Assembly: GCA_018673485.1 (NCBI GenBank)
Contig: JABHCP010000012.1
Coordinates: 30,393-94,392, forward strand
Source: Candidatus Uhrbacteria bacterium
GTDB taxonomy: Bacteria > Patescibacteriota > Patescibacteriia > UBA9934
Length of the DNA: 64,000 nucleotides
Direction: 5' to 3'
The notes under the pieces were generated by a model. That model was not told where the DNA came from, did no database searches, and was given only the letters and a program-made list of their open reading frames with translations. The position numbers and the translations under genes are program-made. Below, in pieces: positions 20,796 through 64,000 of the stretch; the stretch's first letter is position 1, and each line of letters opens with the position of its first letter.

Positions 20796-20800
20796 TGATA

Positions 20801-20832: not shown

Positions 20833-20873
20833 GATATAATAAACTAAGACTTATTATAAAAAGCTACTTCAAT

Positions 20874-29210: not shown

Positions 29211-29270
29211 TTGATTACTGTAATGCTAATAGTAGCCCAATTTTGCAAATATGTCAATGTGGCTGTGGAT

Positions 29271-35852: not shown

Positions 35853-38828
35853 TTAAAACGAGCTGTCTTCGCAGATGTCTTTGAAGTCGCAGTATTGGCA
35901 GTGGAATCCGGGGGTTGGGCTGAAGTCACTGGCTTGCATCTTCTCTACTGCTTTAATTACTTCATCGATTAGTTTTTGCTTTTCTTTATCTGTTGGTTCA
36001 AAACTCACTGAAGAGTTGTCTTCCAGATAGTGGTAGGTTGCTTTCGTGATCTTGAGTGGTGGATCGAAACACCGTTCACACGCTAGCGCATAAAGCACGA
36101 GTTGCTTGCGTTCAGGCCAGCTGAGCTTATCCTTTGGTTTTCCAGTTTTATAGTCTACGATCTCATATCCATCATCTAGCTTATCGATCCGATCGATTCT
36201 TCCCTTGGTGGAGATGTCACCAATTTTGAGGGTGAAGTCCTTTTCGATGAATGCGATCTTTGGTTTTGTTTCGGTAAGAATATGGTAGTACTCAGACATC
36301 GTGTCCTTACCCTTTTGATGATACTCAACACGTGTCTCAGCGTCAGGATACCACTCATCAATCCAAGCGCTTTCATAAAGCTCAAGTAATCGACTCTCTG
36401 GCGGAATCTCATCTAATCCTCCCTCCTTCCCACCCTTCGATTCCTCAGGGTGCCCTGAGCTTGTCGAATGGGCAAGGGGGGATAGAGGGGGGTTGCCTTC
36501 CACATACTCACGGGCGAATTGTTCGAGTGCGTTGTGCATTGTCTTACCAAAACTCATTTGATAGCGACCAAACACAGGTACGCGCAAGATGTGGGCATAT
36601 TTGTATTGTAATGGACAGCTTGAGAATGCAGCAATCTGCGTGAAGCTGATGTTGCTCGGTAGCTGATGGTCTACTGTAGCTTTCTCATCGATTGGATCGG
36701 CCTGAGGCTCAAGCGATTTGTTTTGACCAGAATCTTGCGCTTCAATCTCAAGTTCTTTAACAAACCGTGATGGTTTGCGTTTGCGGGTACCACCATAGTC
36801 GTCAGCTGAGAAAAGATAGAGATGTTCTTTGGCTCGAGTCATGGCAACATAGAGCAGTCGTCGTTCTTCCTCGATATGTTCATCACGATCTGCGTCGATT
36901 TGAGTGTTGATGAGTCCCTCTGGAATTCCGATTGGACTACTGCGACGTTGTGTTGGGAATCGTTGCTCAACCATGTTTACTAAAAAGACGAATCGAAATT
37001 CTAATCCCTTTGATGCGTGAATAGTCATTATCTGAACCACGTCAGGGCCAGCGGTTGGATCCCCTGAGAGCGCACCGGATTCGCCACTTGATCGCTCATG
37101 TTCGAATTCTTCTAAAAAGTGATGAAGAGTTTTGTCGTCATTTGAATATTCAAAGCGCTTAACGCGTTCAAAGAACTTTTGCAAAAGTCCGTTCTCTTCA
37201 ATTTGTTGTGGTTCTGGCAGTTGCTGTGCCGTGGCGATGATCCCAGTTTGTTTTACGATCTCTACAAATAATTCACTACTTGGTTTTCGTTTTGATAGAG
37301 CCCGCAGTTCTGTCAGCGCTTCGATTATCTCGGTGATTCTTTCGCGACTTGCATCAGATATATCATCGGTTTGCTCTAAAACTTCAAAAAGCGAGAGGCC
37401 CTTCTTTTTACTGTGCATTGAAAGCTTGGCAATGTCGATTTCTGAAATTCCAAGCTCTGGATGGCTTAGAATTCTGTAAATCGAAGGACTGTCATACGGG
37501 AGGTCAATTACGCGCATCCAAGCCAAGCAATCAAGTATTACCGGCTTTGTGTATAGCCCTGAGAGGGCCAGGAAGCGGTATGGCATGCGAATCTGGTCCA
37601 TGATCTCTACAAATGGCTCAGCATGCGAATTTGCGCGAACTAGAATGGCAAAGTCACTCCAATTGCACTCGTGTTCTTTTTGCAGATCAACAATTCTTGA
37701 GATTACTCCATGAAGCTCACTTTGCAGATCATCGGCATGGATATGGTCGACTTTCCCCTCTATTCCAAGGTTTGGCAACAGCTCCTTATTGATTTGCTCG
37801 CGATGTTCAAGTCTGTGTGGATTATTGTTCTGGATTACGTTATACGCGTGGTGCAATACTTTTTCTGAGCTTCTGTAGTTTTGATTGAGAACAATCTGCT
37901 TTGCGTCTGAAAAGTCTTTTGAGAAATTCAAGATATTGGAAAGTGATGCTCCGCGGAATTTGTAAATTGATTGATCGTCGTCCCCCACTACCGTGATATT
38001 GAAAGGTTCTTTAAGCAAGAGTTTGATGAGTTCGTATTGTGCAGAGTTAGTATCCTGAAATTCATCAACAAGCACGAACTTAAATTGTTCCTGATACTGC
38101 CTAGCAATCCGAGGACGCGATCGAAGAAGCTCAATCGTATAACTAACAAGATCTGCAAAATCAAGCGCACTATTTTCAAGCAAGATTTGTTGGTAGGTGT
38201 GATACGCATTAGCGAGCTCATTGATACGCGCATTTTCCTGCTCTTGTTCTTCCGGACTAATCTCATCTCCCTCCTTCCCAAGGGGGGATTCAGGGGGGTT
38301 GCCGTCATTCAAATCAAGATCCTCAGCAAATTTCAAATACTGCTCTGGCGTGATCATCTCATCTTTAATTCGTGAGAAGTGCTGCAAGAGCGCGCGGATA
38401 AACTTAGTTGGATTTGATTTTGGTTTGTAGTAATCAAGTTCAAAACGATCAAAGTTTTTCCTGATCAATAAGTAGGTATCAATCTCATCGAGAAGCGTAA
38501 ATTCATGCGGCACGCCAATATCAAGCGCATGCTGGCGCAAAATCCGCTCACAAAATGCATGAAAGGTTGAGATCCACATGTCCACGTAGCCGATTGGGAG
38601 TAATTGATCGACTCGCTCTTCCATCTCCGTTGCCGCTTTCTCTGTAAAAGTGAGTGCCAAAATCTCCTCAGGCTTCGCCTTCCCCTGCTCAATCAACCAG
38701 GCAATCCGCTGCGTTATAGCAGTAGTCTTCCCAGTCCCCGCCCCCGCAATAATCATAAGCGGCCCCCGATCATGCGTAACAGCCTCCAACTGCGCCTCAT
38801 TTAGATTTTCGAGTAGGTTTTGATTCAT
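35853..38828 (-). CDS. UvrD/PcrA-family helicase fused to a C-terminal PD-(D/E)XK Cas4/AddB-like nuclease with a 4-Cys cluster; carries two in-frame repeat-derived insertions
   Basis: Walker A IIAGAGTGKTTAI; C-terminal CPLQYKY...DRIDKLDDGYEIVDYKTGK...CQYCDFKDIC; encoded peptides GNPPLSPLAHSTSSGHPEESKGGKEGG and GNPPESPLGKEGDE come from repeat R1. Confidence 0.8.
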   Translation of the reverse strand: MNQNLLENLNEAQLEAVTHDRGPLMIIAGAGTGKTTAITQRIAWLIEQGKAKPEEILALTFTEKAATEMEERVDQLLPIGYVDMWISTFHAFCERILRQHALDIGVPHEFTLLDEIDTYLLIRKNFDRFELDYYKPKSNPTKFIRALLQHFSRIKDEMITPEQYLKFAEDLDLNDGNPPESPLGKEGDEISPEEQEQENARINELANAYHTYQQILLENSALDFADLVSYTIELLRSRPRIARQYQEQFKFVLVDEFQDTNSAQYELIKLLLKEPFNITVVGDDDQSIYKFRGASLSNILNFSKDFSDAKQIVLNQNYRSSEKVLHHAYNVIQNNNPHRLEHREQINKELLPNLGIEGKVDHIHADDLQSELHGVISRIVDLQKEHECNWSDFAILVRANSHAEPFVEIMDQIRMPYRFLALSGLYTKPVILDCLAWMRVIDLPYDSPSIYRILSHPELGISEIDIAKLSMHSKKKGLSLFEVLEQTDDISDASRERITEIIEALTELRALSKRKPSSELFVEIVKQTGIIATAQQLPEPQQIEENGLLQKFFERVKRFEYSNDDKTLHHFLEEFEHERSSGESGALSGDPTAGPDVVQIMTIHASKGLEFRFVFLVNMVEQRFPTQRRSSPIGIPEGLINTQIDADRDEHIEEERRLLYVAMTRAKEHLYLFSADDYGGTRKRKPSRFVKELEIEAQDSGQNKSLEPQADPIDEKATVDHQLPSNISFTQIAAFSSCPLQYKYAHILRVPVFGRYQMSFGKTMHNALEQFAREYVEGNPPLSPLAHSTSSGHPEESKGGKEGGLDEIPPESRLLELYESAWIDEWYPDAETRVEYHQKGKDTMSEYYHILTETKPKIAFIEKDFTLKIGDISTKGRIDRIDKLDDGYEIVDYKTGKPKDKLSWPERKQLVLYALACERCFDPPLKITKATYHYLEDNSSVSFEPTDKEKQKLIDEVIKAVEKMQASDFSPTPGFHCQYCDFKDICEDSSF
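36417..36495 (-). repeat. Repeat R1, in-frame intragenic copy (reverse orientation on the window plus strand)
   Basis: Its reverse complement is nearly identical to 17951-18030. Confidence 0.8.
38268..38304 (-). repeat. Short form of R1 (termini only), in-frame intragenic copy
   Basis: Reverse complement is ggcaacccccctgaatccccccttgggaaggaggg. Confidence 0.7.
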
Positions 38829-38838
38829 ATGCTTATAT

Positions 38839-38920
38839 CCTCCCCCTTCCCACCCATCGATATAACTCAGGGTGCCCTGAGCGGAGTCGAATGGGCAAGG
38901 GGGAGTTAGAGGGGGTTGCC
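38839..38920 (-). repeat. Repeat R1, intergenic copy that supplies the GGAGG ribosome-binding site of the helicase gene
   Basis: Minus strand reads ...gggaagggggaggatataagcat-ATG. Confidence 0.8.
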
Positions 38921-38962
38921 TTTAATCTCATTCGATCGAATTATTGGTCTCATTTTACCATA

Positions 38963-38991
38963 ATTGACAAAAGGCCTTTTTAATGATAGAT
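38963..38991 (+). promoter_or_regulatory. Sigma70-like promoter TTGACA-17bp-TAGATT for high-GC cassette A
   Basis: ttgacaaaaggcctttttaatgatagatt. Confidence 0.45.
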
Positions 38992-39057
38992 TTAATCGTC
39001 TTCCAGATACCAACTCGCCCGCAAGGGCATGGGCTTAAAGCCCGAAGGAGGCGTAAG

Positions 39058-39729
39058 ATGCCTCAGTGTACCCCCGAAGGTGCGATCGATCTCGTGGACT
39101 TTATTGGCCACACTCACAAGATGCTCGGTCTCATCGACCCAGTCGGGTTGCCCGAGACCGCCTCGCGTATCGATGACGTTGCACATATCCTGGCTGAGAA
39201 CGGCTGGGAGAATGTGACAGAGATGTTCGAGCGTGCTGTCTTGGATCCAAGTGTGCGTCCGATCGCGCATAATATCGAGATGATGAATACGCACATCGGC
39301 CACAATGGCTACAGTGGCACCTACATGCGGTTGACCAGCGGTGATGGCCGATTCCGTGTGGTGATCGCTCCAAGTGACGTATGTGGTATCGAGACCGGAC
39401 AATGGTGGCTCGCTACTGTGACCATGTACGATGTGTCGGGTCCCTCCAGGTCGGCTGCCGCGTACGCTCACTGTTTCGGCGCCCACTACTGGTACGGCCC
39501 TACACCGCATCAGGTCCGTTGCGAAGCCAATCCTGGTTGCATGGCGATGAAGCTTGAGATCTCGCCGTGGCATACCGATGTGGTCATAGGTAGTGAGGGG
39601 CTCTTCGACCGATTGCGCTCCGACAACTATGGCCGCGAGATTCGCATCATGGCCCGCTGTCTCGGCCGCAACCACTTCGCTCGCAACGGGCCGAATTTCG
39701 ACTTCCTCAGGAATATCGAGTTCGAGTAG
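39058..39729 (+). CDS. Hypothetical protein, high-GC cassette paralogue A (224 aa)
   Basis: Leader is CCCGCAAGG, hairpin (gggcttaaagccc), GAAGGAGGCG, ATG; paralogous to 39930-40577 (shared YMRLTSGDGRFRV / YLRIDSADGRIRV and PHQVRCEANPG / PHQVHCEPNPG). Confidence 0.55.
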   Translation: MPQCTPEGAIDLVDFIGHTHKMLGLIDPVGLPETASRIDDVAHILAENGWENVTEMFERAVLDPSVRPIAHNIEMMNTHIGHNGYSGTYMRLTSGDGRFRVVIAPSDVCGIETGQWWLATVTMYDVSGPSRSAAAYAHCFGAHYWYGPTPHQVRCEANPGCMAMKLEISPWHTDVVIGSEGLFDRLRSDNYGREIRIMARCLGRNHFARNGPNFDFLRNIEFE

Positions 39730-39824
39730 TGATCGCGACTCGCCCCCCCCCGTACGTCTCGAACCCCCACCTCGTGGGGGTTCTTCGTTTTCAGCAAAAA
39801 CATTGCTAATTCTGGCCAAAAGCC

Positions 39825-39853
39825 TTGACAAAAGGGCTTTTTTCTGCTATTGT
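39825..39853 (+). promoter_or_regulatory. Sigma70-like promoter TTGACA-17bp-TATTGT for cassette B (a duplicated copy of the cassette A promoter context)
   Basis: ttgacaaaagggcttttttctgctattgt. Confidence 0.45.
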
Positions 39854-39929
39854 TAGCAGTTCAAAAAGAACACCTGTGTGTGAAACTTCGCCCGTAAGGG
39901 TATGGGCCTAAAGCCCAAAGGAGGCTGTA

Positions 39930-40577
39930 ATGCCTCAGACCGAAGAAAGTCAGGAGTGCATGGGCGTGAGCGAGTTCGTCAACGCTGTTCACATCATGCT
40001 CGCTCTCCCCAAGCTCGATCTGCCTGAGGACGCCAAGAGCGTCGGTGAGATCCAGGAGGTCCTGCTGGAGAACGGCTGGATGGATATCGCGAAACGCCTC
40101 CGACTCACCGTACGTAAGCACGGTGAGTCGGAGCCCGACTACCGGGGTCCGTACCTGCGTATCGACAGCGCCGATGGGCGTATCCGCGTCACGATCAGTG
40201 ACCGGTGCCCTCGCCCGGAAACCAATGACTGGCAGAGGTGGTACGGTGATGTGATGCTGTTCGATATCTCCGACAGCCACCCGTGGCGCCATGATGACCA
40301 GATCCGCAAGTTCGGTTGTCACATGTGGCAGGACGGCCAGCACCCTCACCAGGTCCACTGCGAGCCCAACCCGGGCCAGCGGATCATGTACCTGAGCTTC
40401 TGGCCCAGTAACGTCGTGGCCGTGCCCGACCATGATGTGCAGGATCACTTCAAGTGGGCCCGCTTCCGCAGTCAGTGGGGGCTCTACATGGACCGAATTG
40501 TGAACGTTGTGGGTGAGTACTTCAACGAAGGTGACTCCTACACCGAGGCGTTCCTGAAGTGCACCTCGGTCGAGTAG
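39930..40577 (+). CDS. Hypothetical protein, high-GC cassette paralogue B (215 aa)
   Basis: Leader is CCCGTAAGG, hairpin (gggcctaaagccc), AAAGGAGGC, ATG; followed by hairpin gaacccccacctcgtgggggttc, the same hairpin found after paralogue A. Confidence 0.55.
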   Translation: MPQTEESQECMGVSEFVNAVHIMLALPKLDLPEDAKSVGEIQEVLLENGWMDIAKRLRLTVRKHGESEPDYRGPYLRIDSADGRIRVTISDRCPRPETNDWQRWYGDVMLFDISDSHPWRHDDQIRKFGCHMWQDGQHPHQVHCEPNPGQRIMYLSFWPSNVVAVPDHDVQDHFKWARFRSQWGLYMDRIVNVVGEYFNEGDSYTEAFLKCTSVE

Positions 40578-40636
40578 CTTGCCTCTGACCGATCTTATCT
40601 TGAACCCCCACCTCGTGGGGGTTCTGTGCATCCAAA

Positions 40637-40669
40637 AGAAAACAACCGCCTTGCGACGGTTGTTTTTTG
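40637..40669. terminator. Bidirectional terminator aaaacaaccgcc-ttgcga-cggttgtttttt
   Basis: Stem with A/T runs on both sides, between convergent genes. Confidence 0.6.
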
Positions 40670-40685
40670 TATCAATTAGTGAGCG

Positions 40686-43420: not shown

Positions 43421-43510
43421 TGTTTAATTTGTTTAAATGTTTAAAGTGTTTACTTCGAAGTAAACAATTTCAACAAGTGAGGGCAGCGCCCGAACGATTA
43501 GACACTTTAA
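43421..43510. repeat. Repeat family R4, long copy
   Basis: gtttaaatgtttaaagtgtttacttcgaagtaaacaatttcaacaagtgagggcagcgcccgaacgattagacactttaaacc. Confidence 0.55.
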
Positions 43511-43944
43511 ACCTTCCTTCCTACATCGCGATACTTTCCTTTGGAAGCAACTTTGTGTCGCGCCATTTCACGTTCCAGGTGAACGAGTGCGTCGGCGTAG
43601 GCGACGTCACTTTGATCGCGCGCTTCTTCTAGTCGTTTTTGAGCAAGATCTCTTGCTTTCTCGATCTCCTCAATCGCTAGCTCGTCAGAACGCTCAGCAG
43701 TATCTGCTAGAATTATCACTTCGTTGTTAGGTCGAACCTCTATCAATCCGGTCGAAACCGCGAGCAATGATTGGTCTTTACCGTCTTTGAGCCGCATCTC
43801 ACCAGCACGTAGGAGTGAGACTAGTGGAATGTGGTTTGATAGAATTGTGATTTCTCCATTTTCTGTCATTACAGAAATCGAATCAACCGAGTCCTCAAAA
43901 ACGACACGCTCTGGAGTTACAATTTTTAGGTTTATTTTTATCAT
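43507..43944 (-). CDS. atpC: F-type ATP synthase subunit epsilon
   Basis: MIKINLKIVTPERVVFEDSVDSISVMTENGEITILSNHIPL... epsilon fold; last gene of the atp operon. Confidence 0.8.
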   Translation of the reverse strand: MIKINLKIVTPERVVFEDSVDSISVMTENGEITILSNHIPLVSLLRAGEMRLKDGKDQSLLAVSTGLIEVRPNNEVIILADTAERSDELAIEEIEKARDLAQKRLEEARDQSDVAYADALVHLEREMARHKVASKGKYRDVGRKV

Positions 43945-44088
43945 AGTGATTGCTTTGGAATGTATACGCTCAACACACACACCATCTCGAAGGCCGGAGG
44001 CCGAGAGATCCCGTTGTTTGAGCGATGTCCACAGTTATACTGCGGGATCCTTCGGTAGGACCTCAGGATGACGGCTGATGGAACAAAA

Positions 44089-45477
<1,389 letters not shown>

Positions 45478-46377
45478 TTATTCAATTGCCGCTTTACCAC
45501 TTGAGATCTCAGCGATTTCCTGAGTGATTGAAGCTTGGCGGATACGGTTGTAAGTGAAGGTTAGTTCTTTGAGCATGTCCTCTGCACTGTCGGTTGCGTT
45601 TCTCATTGCCATCATTCGTGCGGAGTGCTCGGAAGCTGCGGACTCGAGAAGTGCCTGGTAGAGCATCGTTTCAATGAGCCTTGGCAACATTCGCTCGAGC
45701 ACTCTGCTTGGACTTGGTTCAAATATGTATTCATTGGCGAGTTCGAGCTTTTCCGGTTCTTCTTTTTTATCTACCTTACCGAGCTCGTCGTCAGGTTTTC
45801 CTAGTGGCAGTAGTTCAAATACTCTAGGTTTTTGTGTCAGGCTTGATACGAAGTCCGTATAGCCAACGATCACTCGTTTGTATTCCTTTTTGTAGTACGC
45901 TTCCATTATCATGTTTCCGATCGGCAGGATGTCAGAAAATGTTGGTTTATTTGATAGATCTTCAAATCGGGCAATGACTTCTATATTGTTTCGTGAAAGC
46001 GCGTCGCCACCACGCCGCCCTACTGCAATTGCCTCGACTGTTGTACCATCGTCGATCTTTTTGATCTCTGACAATGCCTCTTTCACCATGTTGGCGTTGA
46101 ATCCACCGGCCAATCCGCGATCAGCAGTAAAGAGTATGAATAGCGTCTTGTTGGCGTCCGCGTTTTCCTCAAGCAGAGGATGCGACACATTCTCAGTTGC
46201 GCGACCAATCATGTTTATTGTGTCCCAAGAATTCTGAGAAAATGGACGTGTACCAATAACTGCCTGCGTTGCTCGACGCATTTTGCTCGCAGCAACAAGC
46301 TCCATTGCCTTTGTGATTTTCATCGTGTTAGCAATGGATTTGATTCGTCGCTTTACTGTTTTGGTAGAAGCAGCCAC
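45478..46377 (-). CDS. atpG: F-type ATP synthase subunit gamma
   Basis: 299 aa; MAASTKTVKRRIKSIANTMKITKAMELVAASKMRRA N-terminal helix. Confidence 0.85.
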   Translation of the reverse strand: MAASTKTVKRRIKSIANTMKITKAMELVAASKMRRATQAVIGTRPFSQNSWDTINMIGRATENVSHPLLEENADANKTLFILFTADRGLAGGFNANMVKEALSEIKKIDDGTTVEAIAVGRRGGDALSRNNIEVIARFEDLSNKPTFSDILPIGNMIMEAYYKKEYKRVIVGYTDFVSSLTQKPRVFELLPLGKPDDELGKVDKKEEPEKLELANEYIFEPSPSRVLERMLPRLIETMLYQALLESAASEHSARMMAMRNATDSAEDMLKELTFTYNRIRQASITQEIAEISSGKAAIE

Positions 46378-46380
46378 AGA

Positions 46381-47922
46381 TTAATCTTTATCTTCTTCTG
46401 ATTTATCTTTGATTTGCTCCGGAGCGAATCCCTTTACAAAATCATCAGCAAGTTTTTTGATTTGTGTTTTTGTGTCGTCTGAGATTTCCTTGTCGTCAGT
46501 AACTTTCTTTAGAATTGCAGACCCTGCAGTTTCAAGATAGTTTAGGAATTTGTCTTCAAACTCTAGAATTTTATCTACCTCAATGACATCAAGATAACCT
46601 TCGTTTAGAAGTGTGATCAAGATTGATTGTGCAGCAAATGAAATCGGTCGGTATTGACCTTGCTTCATAAGTTCCATTGATCGCTTTCCACGCTCAAGTT
46701 GTGCCTTTGTTGCTTCATCAAGATCGGTTGCAAACTGTGCGAAAGCTTCCAACTCACGGAACTGTGCTAGGTCAACCTTTAGAGTCTTAGCAACTGATTT
46801 CATCGCTTTTGTTTGCGCTGATGATCCTACACGTGAAACTGAAAGTCCAACGTTAAGTGCTGGTCGCTGTCCTTTGTAGAAGAGATCGCTCTCCAAAAAG
46901 ATCTGACCGTCGGTAATTGAAATAACGTTTGTAGGAATGTACGCCGAAACGTCACCACCTTGAGTTTCAATAATTGGAAGTGCAGTGATTGATCCGCCAC
47001 CTTGCTCTTCACTCAGTCGAGCTGATCGCTCCAACAGGCGTGAGTGCAAGTAGAAAACATCTCCAGGATAAGCTTCTCGTCCTGGTGGTCGACGCAGAAG
47101 TAGTGAAATCTCTCGATACGCCCATGCGTGCTTGGAAAGGTCATCATAAATCACAAGTATGTCCTCTCCCTTGTCCATGAAATACTCAGCAATTGCACAT
47201 CCGGCATATGGCGCGATATATGAAAGTGATGCTGGGTCGGACGCTCCGGCGAGCACGATAGTTGTGTATTCCATCGCTCCCTCTTTTTCCAGTCGAGCTG
47301 TGATGTTTGCAATTTTTGATTCTTTCTGACCAATTGCTACATAGATACATTTAACACCTTCACCTTTTTGGTTGATGATTGTGTCAATTGCGATTGCAGT
47401 TTTTCCAGTTTGTCGGTCTCCAATGATCAACTCACGCTGACCACGTCCAATCGGGATCAATGAATCAATAGCTTTCAATCCAGTATGCAAAGGAACTGAT
47501 ACGGATTGACGTGAGATAACTCCAGGTGCAATTTTTTCGATTGGCTGGTAGTTGTCTGATGTAATTTCACCCTTACCGTCCAATGCTTTACCAAGTGGGT
47601 TTACTACTCGACCAACTACTTGTTCATTAACTGGAATTGAAAGAATTCGTCCAGTTGATTTTACTGTGTCGCCTTCATTGATGTTTTGTGCATTTCCCAA
47701 AACAATAGCTCCGATGCTTTCTTCCTCAATGTTAAGTGCTACTCCCATAACGCCACCTTTGAACTCCAAGAGCTCCATAGATTTTGCTTCAGAAAGTCCA
47801 CTTAGCCGAACTACACCGTCGGCAACAGACAAAACTGTTCCAACTGATTCAACTTGTGCTTGTGATTTGAATTGCTCAACGGTCTTGCGCAATTCGTCAA
47901 TTATTTGTTGTTTTTGTGCCAT
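46381..47922 (-). CDS. atpA: F-type ATP synthase subunit alpha
   Basis: [19 protein letters not shown]-loop; 513 aa. Confidence 0.95.
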
Positions 47923-47927
47923 ACACC

Positions 47928-48311
47928 TTATTTACTTAAAGTCATTTTTAGTTTTTGAAGCGTGCCCGCTATCGATCCGTCTATACGCTTATCATCGATT
48001 CTTATTACTGATCCACCGATTAATCGCTCATCAACTCGCCGTACGATGTCTGCTCCTTTGGCGAGCTTCTCGATCTCTTCGTTTGCCAATTCTGTTAATG
48101 GGTGAGCAGATACCACTGTGATCTTTGATACTCCGTATTTTTCCTTCCATGCTTTGTGGATGTGCATTTCTATTTCGCGCCAACTTCCCAGTAGTTTGTT
48201 CTCTGCCAGGAATGCTACGAATTCTTTCATTACATCCGGAACTGCTTCGTACTCTAGGTCTTCGAGTTGGTCTACTAAAACACGTGCTATGGTTTTTGCA
48301 TTAGTATCCAT
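47928..48311 (-). CDS. atpH: F-type ATP synthase subunit delta (OSCP), short form
   Basis: 127 aa, operon position between atpF and atpA. Confidence 0.6.
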
Positions 48312-48314
48312 AGA

Positions 48315-48950
48315 CTAGGTTAGTTTTCGTACAACCTCTTCTGCTATTGATTTAGACTTTGTTTCATCAATTTGATCTTGCAAAATTCTAGTTGCTGATT
48401 TTACCGCAATGTCAATTATGTCTTTTCGCACTTCTTTAATCATCGCAGTTCTTTCTTCAGTTAGTTGATCCTTACCTTTAGCAATCACTCGTTCGACTTC
48501 GCGTTTTGCAGCGCCGATGATTTCTTCTTGGCGCGCTTTACCTGAGTCATGTGCTTTCTCAATGATCTCTTGAGCTTGTTTTTGCGCATTGATGATCATT
48601 TCCTCTTTTTCGTTTTCGATCTCAGTAACTCGCTTTTCGATGTCGTCAGCTTGCTTCATGCTCTTTTCGATTTTTTCTGAGCGTTCATCGAGCATTTTTA
48701 CAATCGGCTTGTAAACAAACTTCCACAAAACAATCAACACGATTAAGAAGTTGATAAGTTGCGCTGCAAAGATTTGTCCGTTTAATCCAAACTGACCAGC
48801 AACGGCCGCGATTGGATTATCACTTTCAGTTTCGTGACCTACAGATTCTTGGAGTTCACCAACTTCTGCTTGATCCTCACATTCATGACCTTGGCATTCT
48901 TCAATACCTTCATCGTGAACCTCGTTAGTATTTGTTTCTTCTTGACTCAT
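48315..48950 (-). CDS. atpF: F-type ATP synthase subunit b with an acidic His/Glu/Cys-rich N-terminal extension
   Basis: Single transmembrane helix then a long charged helix; operon position. Confidence 0.65.
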   Translation of the reverse strand: MSQEETNTNEVHDEGIEECQGHECEDQAEVGELQESVGHETESDNPIAAVAGQFGLNGQIFAAQLINFLIVLIVLWKFVYKPIVKMLDERSEKIEKSMKQADDIEKRVTEIENEKEEMIINAQKQAQEIIEKAHDSGKARQEEIIGAAKREVERVIAKGKDQLTEERTAMIKEVRKDIIDIAVKSATRILQDQIDETKSKSIAEEVVRKLT

Positions 48951-49071
48951 AGTTTTTATAATAGTCTCAATTCCACCGAGCTAAATTATTTGCTTTAGCG
49001 AAGCTCGATGGTCAAAGATCATTAATAGAGTTTTTCCAGTTCGACACAATTATGCGCCGACTGGGAAAGTT

Positions 49072-49314
<243 letters not shown>

Positions 49315-49376
49315 TTAGTAACAGATCTCTAATGAGATTTGATCCATTTAGAATAATCTAAACAGATCGAATCACA

Positions 49377-50267
49377 CTAGGCGTGTGCCTCAACTTTTTC
49401 TTCTTCATGTTCTTCATCGTGACCATGGCTCATCGTTGCTACTACTAGGAATGCAAGAGTTAACATCGCAAACACTGTTGCCTGAATTACTCCTACAAGG
49501 AGCTCCAAGAACATGAATGGAATTGGAAGAACGTATGAGAATAGTCCGAGCATTACTGTCATCAATACTTCACCGGCAAAAATGTTTCCAAACAATCGTA
49601 GTGAGAGTGAGAGAGTTTTTGCAAATTCCCCAATAATCTCGATTAATCCGATGAAGAACTCAACACATGCAATGACTACAGCCATTGGACCATGTTTAAA
49701 AGCCTTGAAGATTCCTTTGAAGTTTAGGAACTTACTAAAGTGATTGAAAACTCCAAGTGAGCGCATTCCTGCAAAGTGAGTTGTCAAAATTGCGATCATT
49801 GCAATACCAAGGGTCAAGTTAAGGTCACTTGTTGCTGGGCGCAATAGTGGAATCAACTCAAAGTGGCCGTGTAAATATCCGTAAACTCCAATTGATCCAG
49901 TTCCTGGGAGTTGTCCAAGCCAGTTAGAGAAAAGTATAAAGAAGAAGATTGTTGCAACCAGTGGTAGGAACGCTCGGGCTTTCTTTTTATCTTCTGTAAC
50001 TTTTTCAATTTCGTTTAATGCGAACTCGATCAGTGTCTCAACTAGGTTGTAAAGTCCTTTTGGAATAATGCTAATTTTTTTTGTCACTAAGACTGCTACC
50101 AAAACAAAAAACGCGACTGCTATATACGCGTTTAACATGGAATTGGTGATTGTAAAGTTTCCGATCTCAAAAATAGGTTCTGCAGCAAGTGGAATGCTCG
50201 CGTACGCAAGTTTATTTACTATCCCCTTTTTCGTATAGCTCTCCATAGTACTTTGCCTTTTTGGCAA
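49377..50267 (-). CDS. atpB: F-type ATP synthase subunit a
   Basis: LSLRLFGNIFAGE motif carrying the conserved Arg. Confidence 0.8.
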   Translation of the reverse strand: MPKRQSTMESYTKKGIVNKLAYASIPLAAEPIFEIGNFTITNSMLNAYIAVAFFVLVAVLVTKKISIIPKGLYNLVETLIEFALNEIEKVTEDKKKARAFLPLVATIFFFILFSNWLGQLPGTGSIGVYGYLHGHFELIPLLRPATSDLNLTLGIAMIAILTTHFAGMRSLGVFNHFSKFLNFKGIFKAFKHGPMAVVIACVEFFIGLIEIIGEFAKTLSLSLRLFGNIFAGEVLMTVMLGLFSYVLPIPFMFLELLVGVIQATVFAMLTLAFLVVATMSHGHDEEHEEEKVEAHA

Positions 50268-50481
50268 TGATTACAACTGTAATTGTGAGTGCTGCTATCA
50301 GCAGTCCGCCTAATATCCATGGCTCTGTTCCAAATTTTTCATCAAGTCTTTTACCGGCCATCACGGCAAGCAGTGCAGGAACTGCAATTGTTACCCCGAA
50401 GTCGGCGGCAACGCGAAATGCGAGCACGTAATAGTAGCGATCTGACGCTTGATTTGATTGCTTTTTTGGCAAATCTACCAT
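50212..50481 (-). CDS. AtpI/AtpZ-like small membrane protein heading the atp operon
   Basis: 89 aa, 2 transmembrane helices, position immediately upstream of atpB. Confidence 0.4.
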   Translation of the reverse strand: MVDLPKKQSNQASDRYYYVLAFRVAADFGVTIAVPALLAVMAGKRLDEKFGTEPWILGGLLIAALTITVVIIAKKAKYYGELYEKGDSK

Positions 50482-51783: not shown

Positions 51784-51857
51784 TGGCGCCGATGGCAGGA
51801 ATTGAACCTGCGACCCCCTGCTCGACGGCAGGTGCTCTATCACTGAGCTACATCGGC
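51784..51857 (-). tRNA. tRNA-Asp(GUC)-like gene with an apparent 6-nt anticodon loop
   Basis: Acceptor GCCGATG/CATCGGC, D arm GCTC/GAGC, T arm GCAGG-TTCAATT-CCTGC, discriminator G, CCA encoded; anticodon stem CCTGC/GCAGG encloses CGTCGA. Confidence 0.55.
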
Positions 51858-51871
51858 TAAGGAGTGAGAAA

Positions 51872-51984
51872 TGGCTCTGGGGGCTGGATTTGAACCAACG
51901 ACTTCCTGCGTGATGGTAGGTGAACTAACCAGTTGTTCTACCGGCTTGGCAAACAGGCGAGCTAACCAACTGCTCTACCCCAGA
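51872..51984 (-). tRNA. 113-nt tRNA-like gene: canonical acceptor, D and T arms, with about 36 extra nt in the anticodon region (candidate tRNA-Gly(GCC) carrying an insertion or intron, or a disrupted tRNA)
   Basis: 5' TCTGGGG-TA-GAGC-AGTTGGTTA-GCTC-G-CCTGT-TTGCCA[36 nt]C-GCAGG-AAGTC-GTTGG-TTCAAAT-CCAGC-CCCCAGA-G-CCA; removing 51911-51946 gives a 77-nt cloverleaf with loop UUGCCAC. Confidence 0.45.
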
Positions 51985-60798: not shown

Positions 60799-62349
60799 CT
60801 ACAACGTTTCAATCCAACCGAGAAGTGTGCGTACTCCGAATCCTGTTCCGCCTTTACCTAGGTATGACGCCATTGGTTTTTCCGCAAATGCAGGTCCGGC
60901 AATGTCGATGTGCGCCCACTTTTGATCTTCATTTATAAATTCTTTTAGAAACAGTCCTGCTGTCAATGTTCCGCCATAACGTGAGCTTGAAATATTTCGC
61001 AAGTCAGCAATGTCAGATTCGATCAATTTCGCATACTTTCCATAAAGTGGCATTTCCCACATTTGCTCATCTGATTTTTCTGCGGCCGCCATTAGTGATT
61101 TTGATAAATCTGAGTCATTACCCATTACTGCACTAATTTCCTCGCCGAGTGCCACAACGCATGCGCCTGTCAAAGTCGCAAGATCGACAACATAGTCTGG
61201 TTTTTGTTTTTGTGCGTAAACAAGCGCGTCAGCCAGTGTCAGTCTTCCCTCTGCGTCAGTGTTCAAAATCTCGATAGTTTTATCGTTTGCGGCTCGAACG
61301 ATATCTCCTGGCCGAATAGCCTTTCCAGAAGGCATATTCTCTGTTGCGGCAATGATTCCGTGAACTTCGATATTTGGATTTGTCCTAGCGAGTGCTGCAA
61401 ACAATCCAAGCACTGCGGCCGATCCTGCCATATCGCATTTCATTGTTTCCATGTACTGCGCTGGTTTAATGGATAGTCCGCCTGAGTCAAATGTTACGCC
61501 CTTACCAACAACGGCAACTATTTTCTTTGCTTTTTCTGGCTTGTAGGTTAAGTGGATGAGTCTTGGTTCGGAATCTGCTCCCTGGGCAACAGCAAGATAT
61601 GCATTCATTTTTTTCTTCTCGATCTGCTCGCGGTTGTAAACTCGAACTTTGATGTTGGGTGACATCTTAGCGATCTTCTCTGCGGTTTGTGCTAGCCGTG
61701 TTGGTTTCATGTCCTGCGCTGGAGTGTTTACCAAGTCACGTGCCACTGTCACGCCATCAATGAGCATTTCAGCTTTCTCAATTCCCTTCTGTGCTTTATT
61801 CGCATCACGTCCATCCTCGGCGATCAAATAGATTTCTTCAAGAATGTTTTTTTGCTTTGGTTTTTTGTAAGTATCGAATTGATATGAGGCAAGCAGTAGG
61901 GCTTCGGCTATCTTCTGACCGGTGATTTTAGCATCGAACTTAACATCGTCTTCACCAAAGAGCTCGATGGCAACACTTGTCACTGGAAGTCCTTGTAGAA
62001 ATCCGTAAATAGATCCTGATACCTCACGAAGTGATGCACTGAGATTTGTTTGTTTGCCCAGCCCAACAATTAGTAAGTCCGAAAAGTTAAGCATTTGACC
62101 AGCCTTACCTTCGAATTCTTTTTTCTTAGCGTTTACTTTTAATTTACCGCCAGTTTCCTCACCAAGTCGCAGAATAAAATCATTTTCCCAATTCTCACCC
62201 TCGTAAATTCCAACAATGCGGATATCCACATCCTGAGTTAATATATCTCCTTTTTTTGCTGTGATGTTCACAAAGTCTTGTTTATATAAAGGTTTTACCG
62301 ATTTTTGTACGTTTTGTCCAGGAAAAAGATTGGTTCTTAATTTTGACAA
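60799..62349 (-). CDS. pepA: Leucyl aminopeptidase (M17 family)
   Basis: NTDAEGRLTLADAL signature plus upstream VGKGVTFDSGG motif. Confidence 0.9.
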   Translation of the reverse strand: MSKLRTNLFPGQNVQKSVKPLYKQDFVNITAKKGDILTQDVDIRIVGIYEGENWENDFILRLGEETGGKLKVNAKKKEFEGKAGQMLNFSDLLIVGLGKQTNLSASLREVSGSIYGFLQGLPVTSVAIELFGEDDVKFDAKITGQKIAEALLLASYQFDTYKKPKQKNILEEIYLIAEDGRDANKAQKGIEKAEMLIDGVTVARDLVNTPAQDMKPTRLAQTAEKIAKMSPNIKVRVYNREQIEKKKMNAYLAVAQGADSEPRLIHLTYKPEKAKKIVAVVGKGVTFDSGGLSIKPAQYMETMKCDMAGSAAVLGLFAALARTNPNIEVHGIIAATENMPSGKAIRPGDIVRAANDKTIEILNTDAEGRLTLADALVYAQKQKPDYVVDLATLTGACVVALGEEISAVMGNDSDLSKSLMAAAEKSDEQMWEMPLYGKYAKLIESDIADLRNISSSRYGGTLTAGLFLKEFINEDQKWAHIDIAGPAFAEKPMASYLGKGGTGFGVRTLLGWIETL

Positions 62350-62409
62350 GTGTATAAGATCTTGACTATATTGCTATATTTAGCTATTATTCTCGCGAAC
62401 TAAAAGATA

Positions 62410-62541
62410 TGCCACATTGTACACAAATGAAGCGCAAGAAGGCACGGGCGATTGAAGCCGATAAACGTGTTGTAGCTGCAAGAAAGCGACGAAGAGCTAA
62501 GGCGATTCGTTTGTCAAAGGCAGAAGACGCTGCAAAATAAA
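62410..62541 (+). CDS. Putative 43-aa highly basic peptide (MPHCTQMKRKKARAIEADKRVVAARKRRRAKAIRLSKAEDAAK)
   Basis: Not in the supplied ORF track because it is under 60 aa; followed by the same terminator sequence as the next gene. Confidence 0.3.
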
Positions 62542-62544
62542 AAT

Positions 62545-62576
62545 ACCCTTTCGATTCGTTCGAGAGGGTGTTTTTT
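62545..62576 (+). terminator. Terminator accctttcgattcgttcgagagggtg then TTTTTT (copy 1 of 2)
   Basis: Near-identical to 63344-63375. Confidence 0.6.
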
Positions 62577-62650: not shown

Positions 62651-63322
62651 ATGGGCGAACAAATACAGAAAAATCCTGAAGAGACTGTAGATCCAGCGGA
62701 AAGTGGTGAGATTAACTCGTCAGAGAAATCCGATGGTGAGCAGGAAGCCGATAGCCTGAAAAATGAATTGAAGGGTCTTTTGGGCGATGAAGATAGTAGC
62801 TTTGGGAAGCGAAGAGCTCGGGTTGATGCCATGGATAGATTAAAAGGTGAAGTCGGTGTAGAGGGTATGTTCCAGGAGATTATTTCTGCAAACGAAGAAG
62901 GTATGTTGGAGGATTCATTGATGTACGATCTTATTGGAAGGTATGTAAGAGAACATCTTCTCGGTACCGCAAAGATTCAGGCAAGAGGTAAGTTTTTCAG
63001 GCGTCAATATGAAAAATCACCATTGATTAAAGATGCGCCATTACGGGAAATGATTCAAGCAGTTCTTGATGAACTATTGTCAATAACTTCCTTTGACAAA
63101 GATATTCAAAATATTGCATTACAAGAGTTTGTTAATGAATATGATTCCCGGGTTATTGAGGAGGAGCGTAATGTGGAGGATGGTCAATGGAGGGCAAATG
63201 AAGCCAACTCAGAAGAAGATCGTCAAATGTGGCTTCGTAGAAAGAAGCATAGTGAGGCAGAAGTTATCAAGCGGCAAGCTAATAGAGATGAAGTTGAGGA
63301 AATGATCGCAGCGCTTAAATAA
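62651..63322 (+). CDS. Hypothetical acidic protein
   Basis: 223 aa, Glu/Asp-rich, no recognised motif. Confidence 0.45.
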   Translation: MGEQIQKNPEETVDPAESGEINSSEKSDGEQEADSLKNELKGLLGDEDSSFGKRRARVDAMDRLKGEVGVEGMFQEIISANEEGMLEDSLMYDLIGRYVREHLLGTAKIQARGKFFRRQYEKSPLIKDAPLREMIQAVLDELLSITSFDKDIQNIALQEFVNEYDSRVIEEERNVEDGQWRANEANSEEDRQMWLRRKKHSEAEVIKRQANRDEVEEMIAALK

Positions 63323-63343
63323 ATTTCACGTAAAATAAAAGTA

Positions 63344-63375
63344 CCCTTTCGATTCGTTCGAGAGGGTGTTTTTTT
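63344..63375 (+). terminator. Terminator accctttcgattcgttcgagagggtg then TTTTTTT (copy 2 of 2)
   Basis: Duplicate of the 62545 terminator. Confidence 0.6.
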
Positions 63376-63389
63376 ATACATAGATTGGA

Positions 63390-63418
63390 TTGACATATTG
63401 TACTGAGGTTGCTAATCT
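63390..63418 (+). promoter_or_regulatory. Sigma70-like promoter TTGACA-17bp-TAATCT upstream of a high-GC H+-PPase gene
   Basis: ttgacatattgtactgaggttgctaatct. Confidence 0.45.
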
Positions 63419-63504
63419 TTCCGCGCCTTTCGCAGAAATGAAGCGGAGGGGGAATGAACCCATGAATGTCTAACCTTCCTGGTAGACAAGAGGAGAAGTA
63501 CGTT

Positions 63505-64000
63505 ATGCAGAACTTTGCATACCTTGTGCCCGCAGCGGGTATCTTGGCGTTGATCTACGCCTTCATCAAGACCCAGTGGATCAACAGGCAAGATCCGGGT
63601 GACGCGAAGATGCAGGAGATCGGTCTGGCTATCCGTGAAGGAGCCATGGCCTTCCTGGCCACTGAGTACAAGGTCCTCGCGATCTTCGTCGCGGTGGTCG
63701 CGGTCCTCCTGGGCGTCGTCAACTTCATGCAGATCGGTCCGTCGGCATCGTTCGTTTCGTTGTCCTTTGTCGTCGGTGCAGGCTGCTCTGGCTTGGCTGG
63801 CTTCATCGGGATGCGAGTGGCTACTGCCGCCAACGTTCGTACCACGGCTGCAGCTCGCACCAGCCTTCCCGACGCTCTCCAGGTCGCCTTCTCCGGCGGC
63901 GCTGTCATGGGCATGTCCGTGGTCGGTTTGGCACTGCTCGGGCTCGGTGGTCTCTACCTGCTCTACATCGCCATGTTCGGTGGTGGTCCCGAGGCCGATC
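63505..64000 (+). CDS. hppA: Membrane-bound proton-translocating pyrophosphatase (H+-PPase), 5' part; continues beyond the window
   Basis: AGGAGAAG ribosome-binding site; translation [67 protein letters not shown]... matches the HppA N-terminus; GC about 62%; reading frame open to the window end; the minus-strand ORF 63555-63914 is its antisense artefact. Confidence 0.75.

What the first reader, a model, noticed from the sequence alone, without database searches (positions are those of the whole stretch)
63390..64000. H+-pyrophosphatase gene of about 62% GC behind a consensus promoter, a fifth foreign-looking cassette
The window ends in a clearly recognisable hppA N-terminus whose GC content is far above the genomic background. 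Again TTGACA-17-TAATCT lies about 110 nt upstream, with a GC hairpin and AGGAGAAG before the ATG. A horizontally acquired ion-pumping pyrophosphatase would be physiologically meaningful for an energy-limited reduced-genome organism. The supplied ORF track lists only the antisense artefact (63555-63914, minus strand).
Basis: partly seen in the sequence, partly recalled or inferred. Interest (0 to 1): 0.65.

Follow-up and report, generated by a model that had tools for sequence, protein, structure and literature searches.

The report
Horizontally acquired membrane pyrophosphatase gene
The window ends in the start of a membrane pyrophosphatase, a pump that turns waste pyrophosphate into an ion gradient; this small AT-rich Uhrbacteria (CPR) bacterium took the gene from a GC-rich marine bacterial lineage, which is a clear but not unprecedented case of gene borrowing and may hint at its partner organism.

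Summary
An ORF starting at ATG 63505 is the N-terminus of a membrane-integral pyrophosphatase (Pfam H_PPase, E=8e-42). It has GC 0.61 and GC3 0.75, against a gene background of GC3 about 0.40.

The window is part of a 'Candidatus Uhrbacteria bacterium' contig. There the full gene is 709 aa with GC3 0.81, and GC drops back to about 0.43 just past the stop codon.

The closest homologues (85-90% aa, 83-85% nt) lie in genomes of 66-70% GC. In those genomes the gene matches local composition and sits in a conserved prs-rplY-pth-hppA-rpsF-rpsR-rplI-dnaB block. The window's copy is nested inside that clade (bootstrap 90-100%). Its branch shows 66 GC-to-AT versus 3 AT-to-GC third-position changes, and dN/dS is about 0.1. 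So it is a functional, partly ameliorated horizontal acquisition.

Two other low-GC genomes hold independently acquired copies from the same donor lineage. One is a related Uhrbacterium with the gene at the same chromosomal position.

The promoter belongs to a lineage-specific motif, TTGACA-N15-GC-TAnnnT, found 6 times against 0.07 expected.

The "H+" label is not secure. The gate residues (A12.46, E6.53) are the Na+-type arrangement rather than the plant H+ type.

This is a new member of a known kind, of moderate interest.

The parts
63337..63375 (+). Intrinsic terminator of the upstream orphan 223-aa gene (62651-63322). It is the second copy of a 43-nt repeat and marks the native, AT-rich left border of the locus.
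   Evidence: The hairpin plus T-run folds at -18.5 kcal/mol, z -5.8, 0 of 200 shuffles as stable. The 43-nt repeat at 62534-62576 and 63332-63374 is 42/43 identical.
63390..63418 (+). Promoter: -35 TTGACA (63390-63395), 17-nt spacer ending in GC, -10 TAATCT (63413-63418). The transcription start is inferred near 63425.
   Evidence: Exact match to TTGACA-N15-GC-TAnnnT, which occurs 6 times in the window against 0.07 expected (listing). Activity is inferred, not shown.
63419..63504 (+). 86-nt leader with GC 0.50, a marginal hairpin within 63424-63450 and the Shine-Dalgarno GAGGAG at 63490-63495.
   Evidence: Sequence. Fold z -1.2 and -1.95. No Rfam family matches. No significant similarity to the donors' pth 3' end (z <= 1.1).
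63505..64000 (+). 5' part (165 of 709 codons) of the membrane-integral pyrophosphatase gene hppA. The gene continues to window-equivalent position 65634 on the parent contig (L001 10855-12984).
   Evidence: Pfam H_PPase E=8.4e-42. Full gene. NCBIfam NF001960 scores 919 bits against a cut-off of 546, and TIGR01104 scores 870 against 652. PDB 4A01 E=2e-160 and 4AV3 E=1.5e-154. GC3 is 0.75 in the window and 0.81 for the whole gene.
63555..63914 (-). Antisense ORF of 119 aa. It is not a gene but a by-product of the GC-rich sense frame.
   Evidence: Listed. The sense frame carries the Pfam match. Gene callers made the same antisense error on short public contigs that are 100% identical to this locus.

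Best explanation
What it is: the 5' end of a complete, functional gene for a K+-dependent membrane-integral pyrophosphatase. This is a homodimeric pump of 16 transmembrane helices that hydrolyses PPi and expels Na+ and/or H+.

Origin: it lies in a marine 'Candidatus Uhrbacteria' (Patescibacteria/CPR) genome. It was acquired horizontally from an uncultured marine lineage of 66-70% GC, probably related to Myxococcota, where the gene is a vertically inherited part of the prs-rplY-pth-hppA-rpsF-rpsR-rplI-dnaB block.

What was transferred: essentially only the ORF carries the foreign signature. In the recipient it sits between a native terminator and a convergent native mscS gene. It is driven by a promoter of the recipient's own strong type (TTGACA-N15-GC-TAnnnT) and has a good Shine-Dalgarno sequence.

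Since transfer: it has been under purifying selection while AT-biased mutation lowers its GC3 from about 0.92 to 0.81. That is roughly a quarter of the way to the host's 0.40.

Inferred role: in a small fermentative cell without a respiratory chain, the pump converts PPi released by biosynthesis into membrane potential or a sodium gradient. This spares ATP that the F1Fo ATPase encoded at 43507-50481 would otherwise have to hydrolyse, and it pulls biosynthetic reactions forward.

Shown here: gene identity, composition, donor clade, direction of transfer, selection, promoter-motif enrichment. Inferred: expression, ion pumped, physiological role.
For: Identity.

Organism and contig.

Composition: the whole gene has GC 0.63 and GC3 0.81, against neighbours at GC3 0.31-0.48. 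GC falls from about 0.61 to 0.46 within 100 nt after the stop.

Not a chimera: three independent ENA assemblies cross the junction 565-1070 nt into hppA at 99.96-100% identity.

Donor clade: the best hits at 85-90% aa and 83-85% nt all lie in contigs of GC 0.66-0.70. There hppA GC3 is 0.91-0.95, equal to its neighbours, in the same conserved context. More distant members at 72-78% aa have the same context, the most distant in a 0.59-GC contig (L007, L010, L013, L014, L097, L098, L099, L111, L112). The same pth-hppA-rpsF synteny occurs in named Myxococcales, Acidobacteriota, Gemmatimonadota and Calditrichota genomes, so the arrangement is ancient and vertical there.

Tree: the window's copy is nested inside the clade at 90-100% bootstrap. 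A position as sister to the clade gets 0-2%, including with Dayhoff recoding.

Direction and amelioration: the window's branch shows 66 S>W versus 3 W>S changes at third positions. Donor branches show 4-11 S>W. Codon usage is donor-like, shifted towards T-ending codons.

Function retained: dN/dS is 0.10-0.14. The catalytic and gate motifs align residue for residue with 4A01.

Promoter.

Not expression-driven: the ATP synthase and ClpB genes have ordinary GC3 of 0.32-0.46.
Against: The true donor is not sampled. Synonymous-codon identity to the nearest donors is only 0.62-0.64, against 0.55-0.57 expected from codon usage alone. Timing and the exact source are therefore loose.

Donor taxonomy is weak. 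One MAG is labelled 'Pseudomonadota bacterium'. The nearest named hppA relatives are Polyangiaceae and Myxococcota at 68-70%. Marker comparisons give only 40-60% identity.

The trees are neighbour-joining only.

No integrase, repeat or att-like site marks the insertion, and no close relative lies on viral contigs, so the transfer mechanism is unknown.

The F-ATPase c subunit lacks the Na+-binding motif, which fits a pure Na+ pump less neatly.

Expression is not shown.
Confidence: 0.85

Rival explanations
1. The pump is a true H+-PPase. It would feed the proton-motive force directly.
For: The F1Fo c subunit (49072-49290) has AEAIAIY with no Q/ES-T sodium motif, so the cell's ATPase looks H+-coupled. 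Residue 16.46 is Asn as in the Vigna H+-PPase, and the best PDB score is to Vigna 4A01. Some K+-dependent H+-PPases keep E6.53 (PMC5150537).
Against: The gate glutamate is at 6.53 (E244) and position 6.57 is Gly (G248). With A12.46 and G12.49 this is the Na+ or Na+/H+ row of the published classification (PMC10897367 Table 1). Public annotations call it a Na+ pump, but those names are generic. A marine habitat makes a sodium cycle plausible (inference).
Confidence: 0.35
2. There was a single ancestral acquisition in Uhrbacteria followed by vertical descent. The window's copy and the copy at the same locus in the related Uhrbacterium L016 would then be orthologues.
For: Both have hppA next to the same spoU-methylase / pilin / T2SSF / T2SSE block, and the neighbouring proteins are 47-70% identical. 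Both are preceded by a terminator plus a TTGACn-17-TAnTCT promoter.
Against: The window's copy is 87-90% identical to one donor subgroup, and L016's copy is 90% identical to another (P0145 in L097). The two are only 78% identical to each other. P0145+P0146 has 100% bootstrap and WINDOW+P0146 has 0%, also after recoding. The difference holds along the whole ORF with no mosaic ends.
Confidence: 0.07
3. The gene is native, and its high GC reflects gene-specific selection such as codon bias of a strongly expressed gene.
For: It sits behind the strongest promoter type. Five of the six exact copies of that motif head GC-rich islands.
Against: ATP synthase and ClpB have GC3 0.32-0.46. The branch leading to this gene is losing GC, not keeping it (66 S>W versus 3 W>S). 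Phylogeny nests it in a GC-rich lineage. The codons it uses are the donors' codons, not the host's preferred A-ending codons.
Confidence: 0.03
4. It is an assembly or binning chimera: a fragment of a GC-rich organism joined to a Patescibacteria contig.
For: Several public contigs end inside hppA, and another Uhrbacteria MAG has the gene split over two contig ends. This is typical of compositional breaks.
Against: Independent assemblies from different samples cross the junction at 99.96-100% identity. The 251-kb contig continues with native genes on the far side. The gene differs by 10% aa and 15% nt from every donor and carries AT-shifted codons. It has a host-type promoter and Shine-Dalgarno.
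Confidence: 0.02
5. Transfer went the other way, from Uhrbacteria into the GC-rich lineage.
For: None specific. It is raised only because two low-GC copies branch near the base of subclades.
Against: In the GC-rich genomes the gene matches local composition and lies in a synteny shared with several other phyla. In the low-GC genomes it is the compositional outlier. L012 keeps a 14-nt scar of the donors' pth end/RBS upstream of its start (z 8.1).
Confidence: 0.02

Closest known systems
Thermotoga maritima K+-dependent Na+-PPase (PDB 4AV3/4AV6/5LZQ)
   Same: Same family and length class (E=1.5e-154 over residues 13-703). It shares A12.46, G12.49 and the gate glutamate at 6.53 followed by Ser 6.54.
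   Different: Residue 16.46 is Asn here, and published notation writes the position D/N16.46 for the Thermotoga and Vigna pair. Ion specificity of the window's protein is untested. The organism is a marine CPR bacterium and the gene is a xenologue.
Vigna radiata K+-dependent H+-PPase (PDB 4A01)
   Same: Best-scoring solved relative (E=2e-160). The catalytic blocks are identical, the protein is K+-dependent (A12.46), and N16.46 and K16.50 are shared.
   Different: Vigna has the gate glutamate at 6.57 (E301) with Gly at 6.53. The window's protein has E at 6.53 (E244) and Gly at 6.57 (G248). It is therefore not the plant-type H+ pump.
hppA of the GC-rich marine lineage (e.g. P0122 in GCA_964476955.1, P0121 in GCA_016844905.1, P0124 in GCA_046766335.1)
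   Same: 87-90% aa and 83-85% nt identity over the full length, donor-like codon usage and shared indels.
   Different: There the gene overlaps pth and precedes rpsF in 66-70% GC DNA. Here it stands alone behind its own promoter in 43% GC DNA. GC3 is 0.81 instead of 0.91-0.95, and the cytoplasmic loop at residues 556-577 has diverged with a 2-aa insertion.
H+-PPase reported in the CPR bacterium 'Ca. Parcunitrobacter nitroensis' (PMC5220378)
   Same: A membrane pyrophosphatase drawn as part of the energy metabolism of a CPR genome.
   Different: That paper argues against recent lateral acquisition for its unusual genes. The present gene is demonstrably foreign and has an identifiable donor clade.
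Host-to-episymbiont gene transfer in CPR, e.g. Saccharibacteria taking genes from Actinobacteria hosts (own knowledge, not checked here)
   Same: A reduced-genome CPR bacterium gains a metabolic or energy gene from an unrelated, GC-richer bacterium.
   Different: No host is known for Uhrbacteria. Physical association with the donor lineage is only a hypothesis here.

Membership tests
Membrane-integral pyrophosphatase (Pfam PF03030 H_PPase; TIGR01104) | Profile match above the curated threshold | tested here: met
   The window fragment scores 144.1 bits against 29.7. The full protein scores 870.5 on TIGR01104 against 651.9, and 919 on NF001960 against 546.
Membrane-integral pyrophosphatase (Pfam PF03030 H_PPase; TIGR01104) | Full-length architecture of about 660-800 aa covering all 16 helices | tested here: met
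   709 aa. It aligns over residues 34-707 to 4A01 residues 72-756, and over 13-703 to 4AV3 residues 21-726. Helix topology itself was not computed.
Membrane-integral pyrophosphatase (Pfam PF03030 H_PPase; TIGR01104) | Conserved hydrolytic-centre and coupling motifs: GGGxYTKAADVGADLVGKVE, DNVGDNVGD, DAYGPxxDNAGGIAEM, GDTxGDPxKDT | tested here: met
   All four motifs are present and aligned with the Vigna enzyme.
Membrane-integral pyrophosphatase (Pfam PF03030 H_PPase; TIGR01104) | PPi hydrolysis coupled to cation transport | not testable with these tools
   Needs vesicle transport assays. The only indirect support is dN/dS of 0.10-0.14.
K+-dependent subfamily | Ala at 12.46 (Lys in K+-independent enzymes) and Gly/Ala at 12.49 | tested here: met
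   The sequence GNTTAAIGKG is identical to Vigna around A537. The rule comes from PMC10897367 and PMC5150537.
Plant-type K+-dependent H+-PPase | Semi-conserved gate glutamate at 6.57 | tested here: not met
   Position 6.57 is G248. The glutamate is E244 at 6.53 (LFESYVG against Vigna LFGSYAE).
Na+-PPase or Na+/H+-PPase | A12.46, G12.49 and gate glutamate at 6.53 with Ser 6.54 | tested here: met
   combined with Table 1 of PMC10897367. This is not exclusive, because some K+-dependent H+-PPases also have E6.53.
Na+-PPase or Na+/H+-PPase | Na+ requirement and Na+ transport | not testable with these tools
   Biochemical assay needed. N16.46 and the H+-type F-ATPase c subunit leave the question open.
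Horizontally transferred gene (xenologue) | Composition deviates sharply from the resident genome, with borders at the gene ends | tested here: met
   GC3 is 0.81 against 0.31-0.48, and the 100-nt GC profile steps at both ends of the ORF.
Horizontally transferred gene (xenologue) | Phylogeny nests the gene within an unrelated lineage where it is native | tested here: met
   NJ trees give 90-100% bootstrap and are robust to gamma correction and Dayhoff recoding. No ML tree was possible.
Horizontally transferred gene (xenologue) | Directional substitution towards the recipient's composition (amelioration) | tested here: met
   66 S>W versus 3 W>S at third positions on the window's branch, and 59 versus 2 on the independent L016 branch.
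Horizontally transferred gene (xenologue) | Mobility signature (integrase, att site, flanking repeats, phage or plasmid vehicle) | tested here: not met
   The flanks share no similarity with the donors or with the other recipients. The promoters share no common flank. The best viral-contig relative is <=61% identical. The 43-nt repeat flanks the neighbouring gene, not hppA.

The most novel reading that the evidence does not exclude
The GC-rich, probably Myxococcota-related marine lineage may be the physical host or prey partner of these marine Uhrbacteria, with repeated host-to-episymbiont transfer of hppA.

At least three low-GC genomes (window, L016, L012) hold copies that branch at three different places inside the donor lineage. 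Two related Uhrbacteria hold different donor alleles at the same chromosomal position. That pattern suggests either xenologous replacement of a resident copy or an insertion hot spot placed behind a strong native promoter.

The other GC-rich ORFan islands behind the same promoter type would then be further captured host or mobile DNA.
Probability: 0.3. Interest if true: 0.7.

Novelty: new member of a known kind. Interest (0 to 1): 0.5.

Why it matters
Hosts and energy budgets of most CPR/Patescibacteria lineages are unknown. This is a well-resolved case in which an ultra-small, apparently non-respiring bacterium has added a PPi-driven ion pump from an identifiable donor clade and keeps it under purifying selection. 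It gives a concrete energy-conservation gene to test.

Because the same donor lineage supplied the gene several times, it also gives a specific and testable candidate partner for marine Uhrbacteria. The test could use co-occurrence, proximity ligation or FISH.

The locus also defines a lineage-specific strong promoter motif that could improve annotation of these genomes. It exposes an annotation artefact as well: public gene calls on short contigs choose the antisense strand of this GC-rich gene.

Tried and rejected
- The genome-contig scan with the protein saturated on the ultra-conserved GAWDNAKK pattern. It returned only hits of <=65% identity, so it named neither the source genome nor the donors. 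Its named loci were reused only for the synteny test.
- Donor taxonomy could not be improved by cluster look-ups or a literature search for the assembly accessions. The only label obtained was 'Pseudomonadota bacterium'.
- I thought the 86-nt leader might be a relic of the donors' pth 3' end. Local alignment against six donors gave z <= 1.1, so this was rejected. The same test did find a real 14-nt scar in L012.
- A riboswitch or leader RNA in 63300-63560 was not found. Only chance-level Rfam hits appeared, all on the terminator, and fold z was -1.2.
- In-situ replacement leaving recipient-type ORF ends was tested by sliding-window identity. No mosaic was seen.
- A frameshift origin for the divergent loop at residues 556-577 was rejected. 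The region is in frame with a 6-nt insertion.
- A phage vehicle was not supported. No close relative lies in IMG/VR.
- The same donor could not be shown for the other cassettes. The C/D paralogue profile and the 170-aa island-A protein hit only themselves, and no cassette protein matched any donor locus held.
- No shared att-like sequence flanks the six promoter copies.
- Co-occurrence of donor and recipient in the same samples could not be judged from the few sample accessions returned.

Full report
WHAT IS IN THE SEQUENCE. An ATG at 63505 opens a frame that runs without a stop to the end of the window, 165 codons. The product matches Pfam H_PPase from profile position 1, with E=8.4e-42 and 144 bits against a cut-off of 29.7. 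The in-window coding part has GC 0.61 and GC3 0.75. Fifty-five other long ORFs of the window have GC3 0.31-0.47. The GC-rich stretch starts at about 63417 and averages 0.594, against 0.427 outside the islands.

Upstream lie four features. The first is a strong terminator hairpin of the preceding orphan gene at 63337-63375, with z -5.8. The second is TTGACA-17-TAATCT at 63390-63418. The third is an 86-nt leader. The fourth is GAGGAG, 9 nt before the ATG.

The minus-strand ORF 63555-63914 is the only one listed because the ORF tool omits ORFs that run off the end. It is an antisense by-product. Only the 'GC hairpin' is weak (z -1.2 to -1.95), and no known RNA family matches the leader.

SOURCE AND FULL GENE. 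The neighbouring 223-aa protein is encoded on NCBI contig JABGPN010000006.1 (251.6 kb, GCA_018644925.1). The window maps there as L001 position = window position - 52650. NCBI names the organism 'Candidatus Uhrbacteria bacterium' and the protein MBT3230363.1. The window's other genes fit a bacterium of the Patescibacteria/CPR type: fmt, clpB, a type IV pilus cluster and an F1Fo operon.

The full gene is 709 aa with GC 0.63 and GC3 0.81. GC drops from about 0.61 to 0.46 within 100 nt after the stop codon. Native-composition genes follow: a convergent mscS, a spoU-type methylase, pilins, T2SSF and T2SSE.

Three independent ENA assemblies cross the junction and extend 565-1070 nt into hppA at 99.96-100% identity. 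The join is therefore real.

WHERE IT CAME FROM. A search with the N-terminal fragment alone gave at most 68% identity. The full protein found a tight group at 85-90% identity (P0121-P0142). Below it came hits at 78% (P0143-P0146), 72% (P0147) and a mass at <=70% that includes Polyangiaceae and Myxococcota entries.

Every member of the 72-90% set that I could place on DNA and that is not a low-GC genome has two properties. It lies in DNA of 66-70% GC (0.59 for the most distant member). Its hppA has the same GC3 as its neighbours (0.91-0.95) within one conserved context. That context is STK-DUF429-NYN-TPR-prs-rplY-pth-hppA-rpsF-rpsR-rplI-dnaB-...-FHA-response regulator-XdhC-M23-PP2C-secA. It is seen in L007-L011, L013-L015, L097-L099, L111 and L112.

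The core of that arrangement (prs-rplY-pth-hppA-rpsF-rpsR-rplI) also occurs in named Myxococcales, Acidobacteriota, Gemmatimonadota, Calditrichota and Rhodothermales genomes. In the GC-rich lineage the gene is therefore old and vertically inherited.

Neighbour-joining trees place the window's protein inside this lineage. The clade window + crown + P0133/P0135 has 90-100% support. A position as sister to that clade has 0-2% support. Both results hold with gamma-corrected distances and Dayhoff-6 recoding. Nucleotide identity to the donors is 83-85% over 2.1 kb.

DIRECTION, AGE AND SELECTION. I looked at third codon positions where four donors agree. There the window's branch has 66 GC-to-AT and 3 AT-to-GC changes. 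Donor branches have 4-11 GC-to-AT changes. Codon usage is donor-like (GCC, GGC, GTC/GTG, CTC/CTG, ATC, ACC) with a drift to T-ending codons. It does not drift towards the A-ending codons that native genes prefer. This looks like mutation-driven amelioration.

dN/dS against the donors is 0.10-0.14, and every catalytic and gate motif is intact. The gene is therefore functional.

The transfer is not fresh. NG86 dS is 0.60-0.67, against 0.28-0.34 among donors. Identity of synonymous codons is 0.62-0.64, only slightly above the 0.55-0.57 expected from codon usage. Either the true donor is unsampled or considerable time has passed. A fall of GC3 from about 0.92 to 0.81, towards an equilibrium near 0.40, corresponds to roughly a quarter of one relaxation time (my inference).

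OTHER RECIPIENTS. Two further low-GC genomes carry copies.

L016 is labelled 'Patescibacteria group bacterium'. Its hppA has GC3 0.85 against 0.22-0.39 for its neighbours. The gene lies directly upstream of the same spoU-methylase/pilin/T2SSF/T2SSE block as in the window's genome, and those neighbours are 47-70% identical. Yet its hppA is 90% identical to the donor-type P0145 (L097) and only 78% identical to the window's copy. P0145+P0146 has 100% bootstrap and window+P0146 has 0%. The difference holds along the whole ORF. The L016 branch shows its own amelioration signature, 59 versus 2.

L012 (P0144, GC3 0.61 against about 0.40 for flanking genes) has a different context. It branches as sister to the crown and keeps an exact 14-nt copy of the donors' pth end/RBS upstream of its present start, with z 8.1.

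So the same donor lineage has supplied this gene to low-GC genomes at least two, probably three, times. Why two related Uhrbacteria hold different donor alleles at the same position remains unexplained. It could be xenologous replacement or an insertion hot spot.

PROMOTER. TAATCT matches TATAAT at only 3 of 6 positions, and the generic scan did not report the site. However, the composite TTGACA-N15-GC-TAnnnT occurs 6 times in the window against 0.07 expected, and no shuffle of 100 had more than one copy. Looser versions precede the tRNA cluster, the atp operon and other native genes. It is thus the recipient's own strong promoter type.

The donors have no promoter here, because hppA overlaps pth. 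Five of the six exact copies sit at the 5' edge of a GC-rich island. The copies share no flanking sequence that would suggest an integration site.

WHICH ION. The alignment to Vigna 4A01 gives D241 (6.50), E244 (6.53), S245 (6.54), G248 (6.57), A12.46, G12.49, N16.46 and K16.50. Published classifications assign A12.46/G12.49 with E6.53 to Na+ and Na+/H+ pumps, and E6.57 to plant-type H+ pumps (PMC10897367). They also note that some K+-dependent H+-PPases retain E6.53 (PMC5150537).

NCBIfam and JGI names ('sodium-translocating', 'K+-stimulated ... sodium pump') are generic. The F-ATPase c subunit lacks the sodium motif. I therefore put Na+ or Na+/H+ at about 0.65 and H+ at about 0.35. 'hppA/H+-PPase' is right as a family name only.

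THE OTHER ISLANDS. Islands at 3702-5228, 12211-14301, 20385-20856 and 38544-40675 hold ORFs with coding-type GC3 of 0.59-0.80. These include secreted and lipoprotein-like products and a paralogue pair. None matched Pfam or NCBIfam. The paralogue profile and the 170-aa protein hit only themselves among 5.8 and 1.84 billion proteins. Their foreign origin rests on composition alone. hppA is the only cassette with a traceable donor.

VERDICT. The finding is real and the horizontal-transfer reading is supported with high confidence. It is a new member of a known kind: a xenologous membrane pyrophosphatase in a CPR genome. mPPases have been reported in CPR before (PMC5220378). Interest is moderate. 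The repeated supply from one donor lineage, and the same-locus pattern, give a testable lead to the unknown partner of marine Uhrbacteria.

Noticed in passing
window 62534-62576 and 63332-63374: Two 43-nt copies (42/43 identical) of a terminator hairpin plus T-run flank the orphan 223-aa gene 62651-63322. There are no other copies in the window. This suggests a recent duplication or insertion next to the hppA promoter.
   Followed up: partly
window 62343-62576: A promoter-like site (TTGACA at 62343) and the first terminator copy bracket a unit of about 190 nt with locally raised GC. It contains a 43-aa ORF (62409-62540) that gene callers predicted on public contigs. It could be a small protein or an sRNA.
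   Followed up: no
window 5213-5241(-), 12091-12119, 20412-20440, 29229-29257(-), 39825-39853, 63390-63418: The motif TTGACA-N15-GC-TAnnnT occurs 6 times against 0.07 expected. Five copies head GC-rich islands and only one precedes a gene of native composition. The copies share no flanking sequence.
   Followed up: partly
window 3702-5228, 12211-14301, 38544-40675: These GC-rich islands encode ORFs with GC3 0.59-0.80: secreted proteins of 170 and about 200 aa, a 171-aa lipoprotein, and a paralogue pair at 39058-39729 and 39930-40577 with paralogous leaders. The two families searched have no homologue outside this genome.
   Followed up: partly
window 13600-14300 and 20385-20856: These stretches have GC of about 0.5 with no convincing long ORF. 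The second contains only an 84-aa TTG ORF at 20483-20737 behind a strong promoter. Neither has an Rfam match, even at E<=1. They could be unknown RNAs or small genes.
   Followed up: partly
window 51784-51984 (-): Rfam reports a tRNA match spanning 110 nt (51875-51984) that ARAGORN does not call. ARAGORN calls a neighbouring tRNA (51784-51857) with an undetermined anticodon. The tRNAs may carry an intron or be otherwise atypical.
   Followed up: no
window 43507-50481 (-): This is a complete F1Fo ATP synthase operon of native composition. Its c subunit (49072-49290) has AEAIAIY and no Na+-binding signature, so it looks H+-coupled.
   Followed up: partly
L002 3182-4363, L004 2699-3388, L005 2161-2817: On short public contigs that are 100% identical to this locus, the gene caller predicted long minus-strand proteins (393, 229 and 218 aa) antisense to hppA. 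This is an annotation artefact now present in public protein sets.
   Followed up: yes
L016 181-2286 and flanks: A related Patescibacteria genome carries an independently derived hppA (GC3 0.85 against 0.22-0.39 for its neighbours, sister to donor P0145) at the same position upstream of the spoU-methylase and type IV pilus block. It is also preceded by a terminator and TTGACC-17-TACTCT.
   Followed up: yes
L012 1134-1147 and 7171-8706: A third low-GC genome keeps a 14-nt exact scar of the donors' pth end/RBS (GCAAGGAGCTGATC) upstream of a shifted hppA start. It also has small GC-rich ORFs (GC 0.57-0.64) a few kb downstream.
   Followed up: partly
L001 12520-12585 (hppA residues 556-577; beyond the window end): The cytoplasmic loop reads KQIREFNLLGRDETMSIGEPDY, where all donors have RQFREIPGLREGKxGVKADY. 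It is in frame with a 6-nt insertion and is still GC-rich. It is the only strongly diverged segment of the protein.
   Followed up: partly
hppA N-terminus versus middle (window 63505-64000 and L001 11600-11700): The N-terminal 165 aa are nearly identical to donor subgroup P0125-P0132. The long 'AFDKNGGQITDSIG' insert matches subgroup P0121-P0124 and P0144. This hints at recombination among donor alleles or an unsampled intermediate donor.
   Followed up: no
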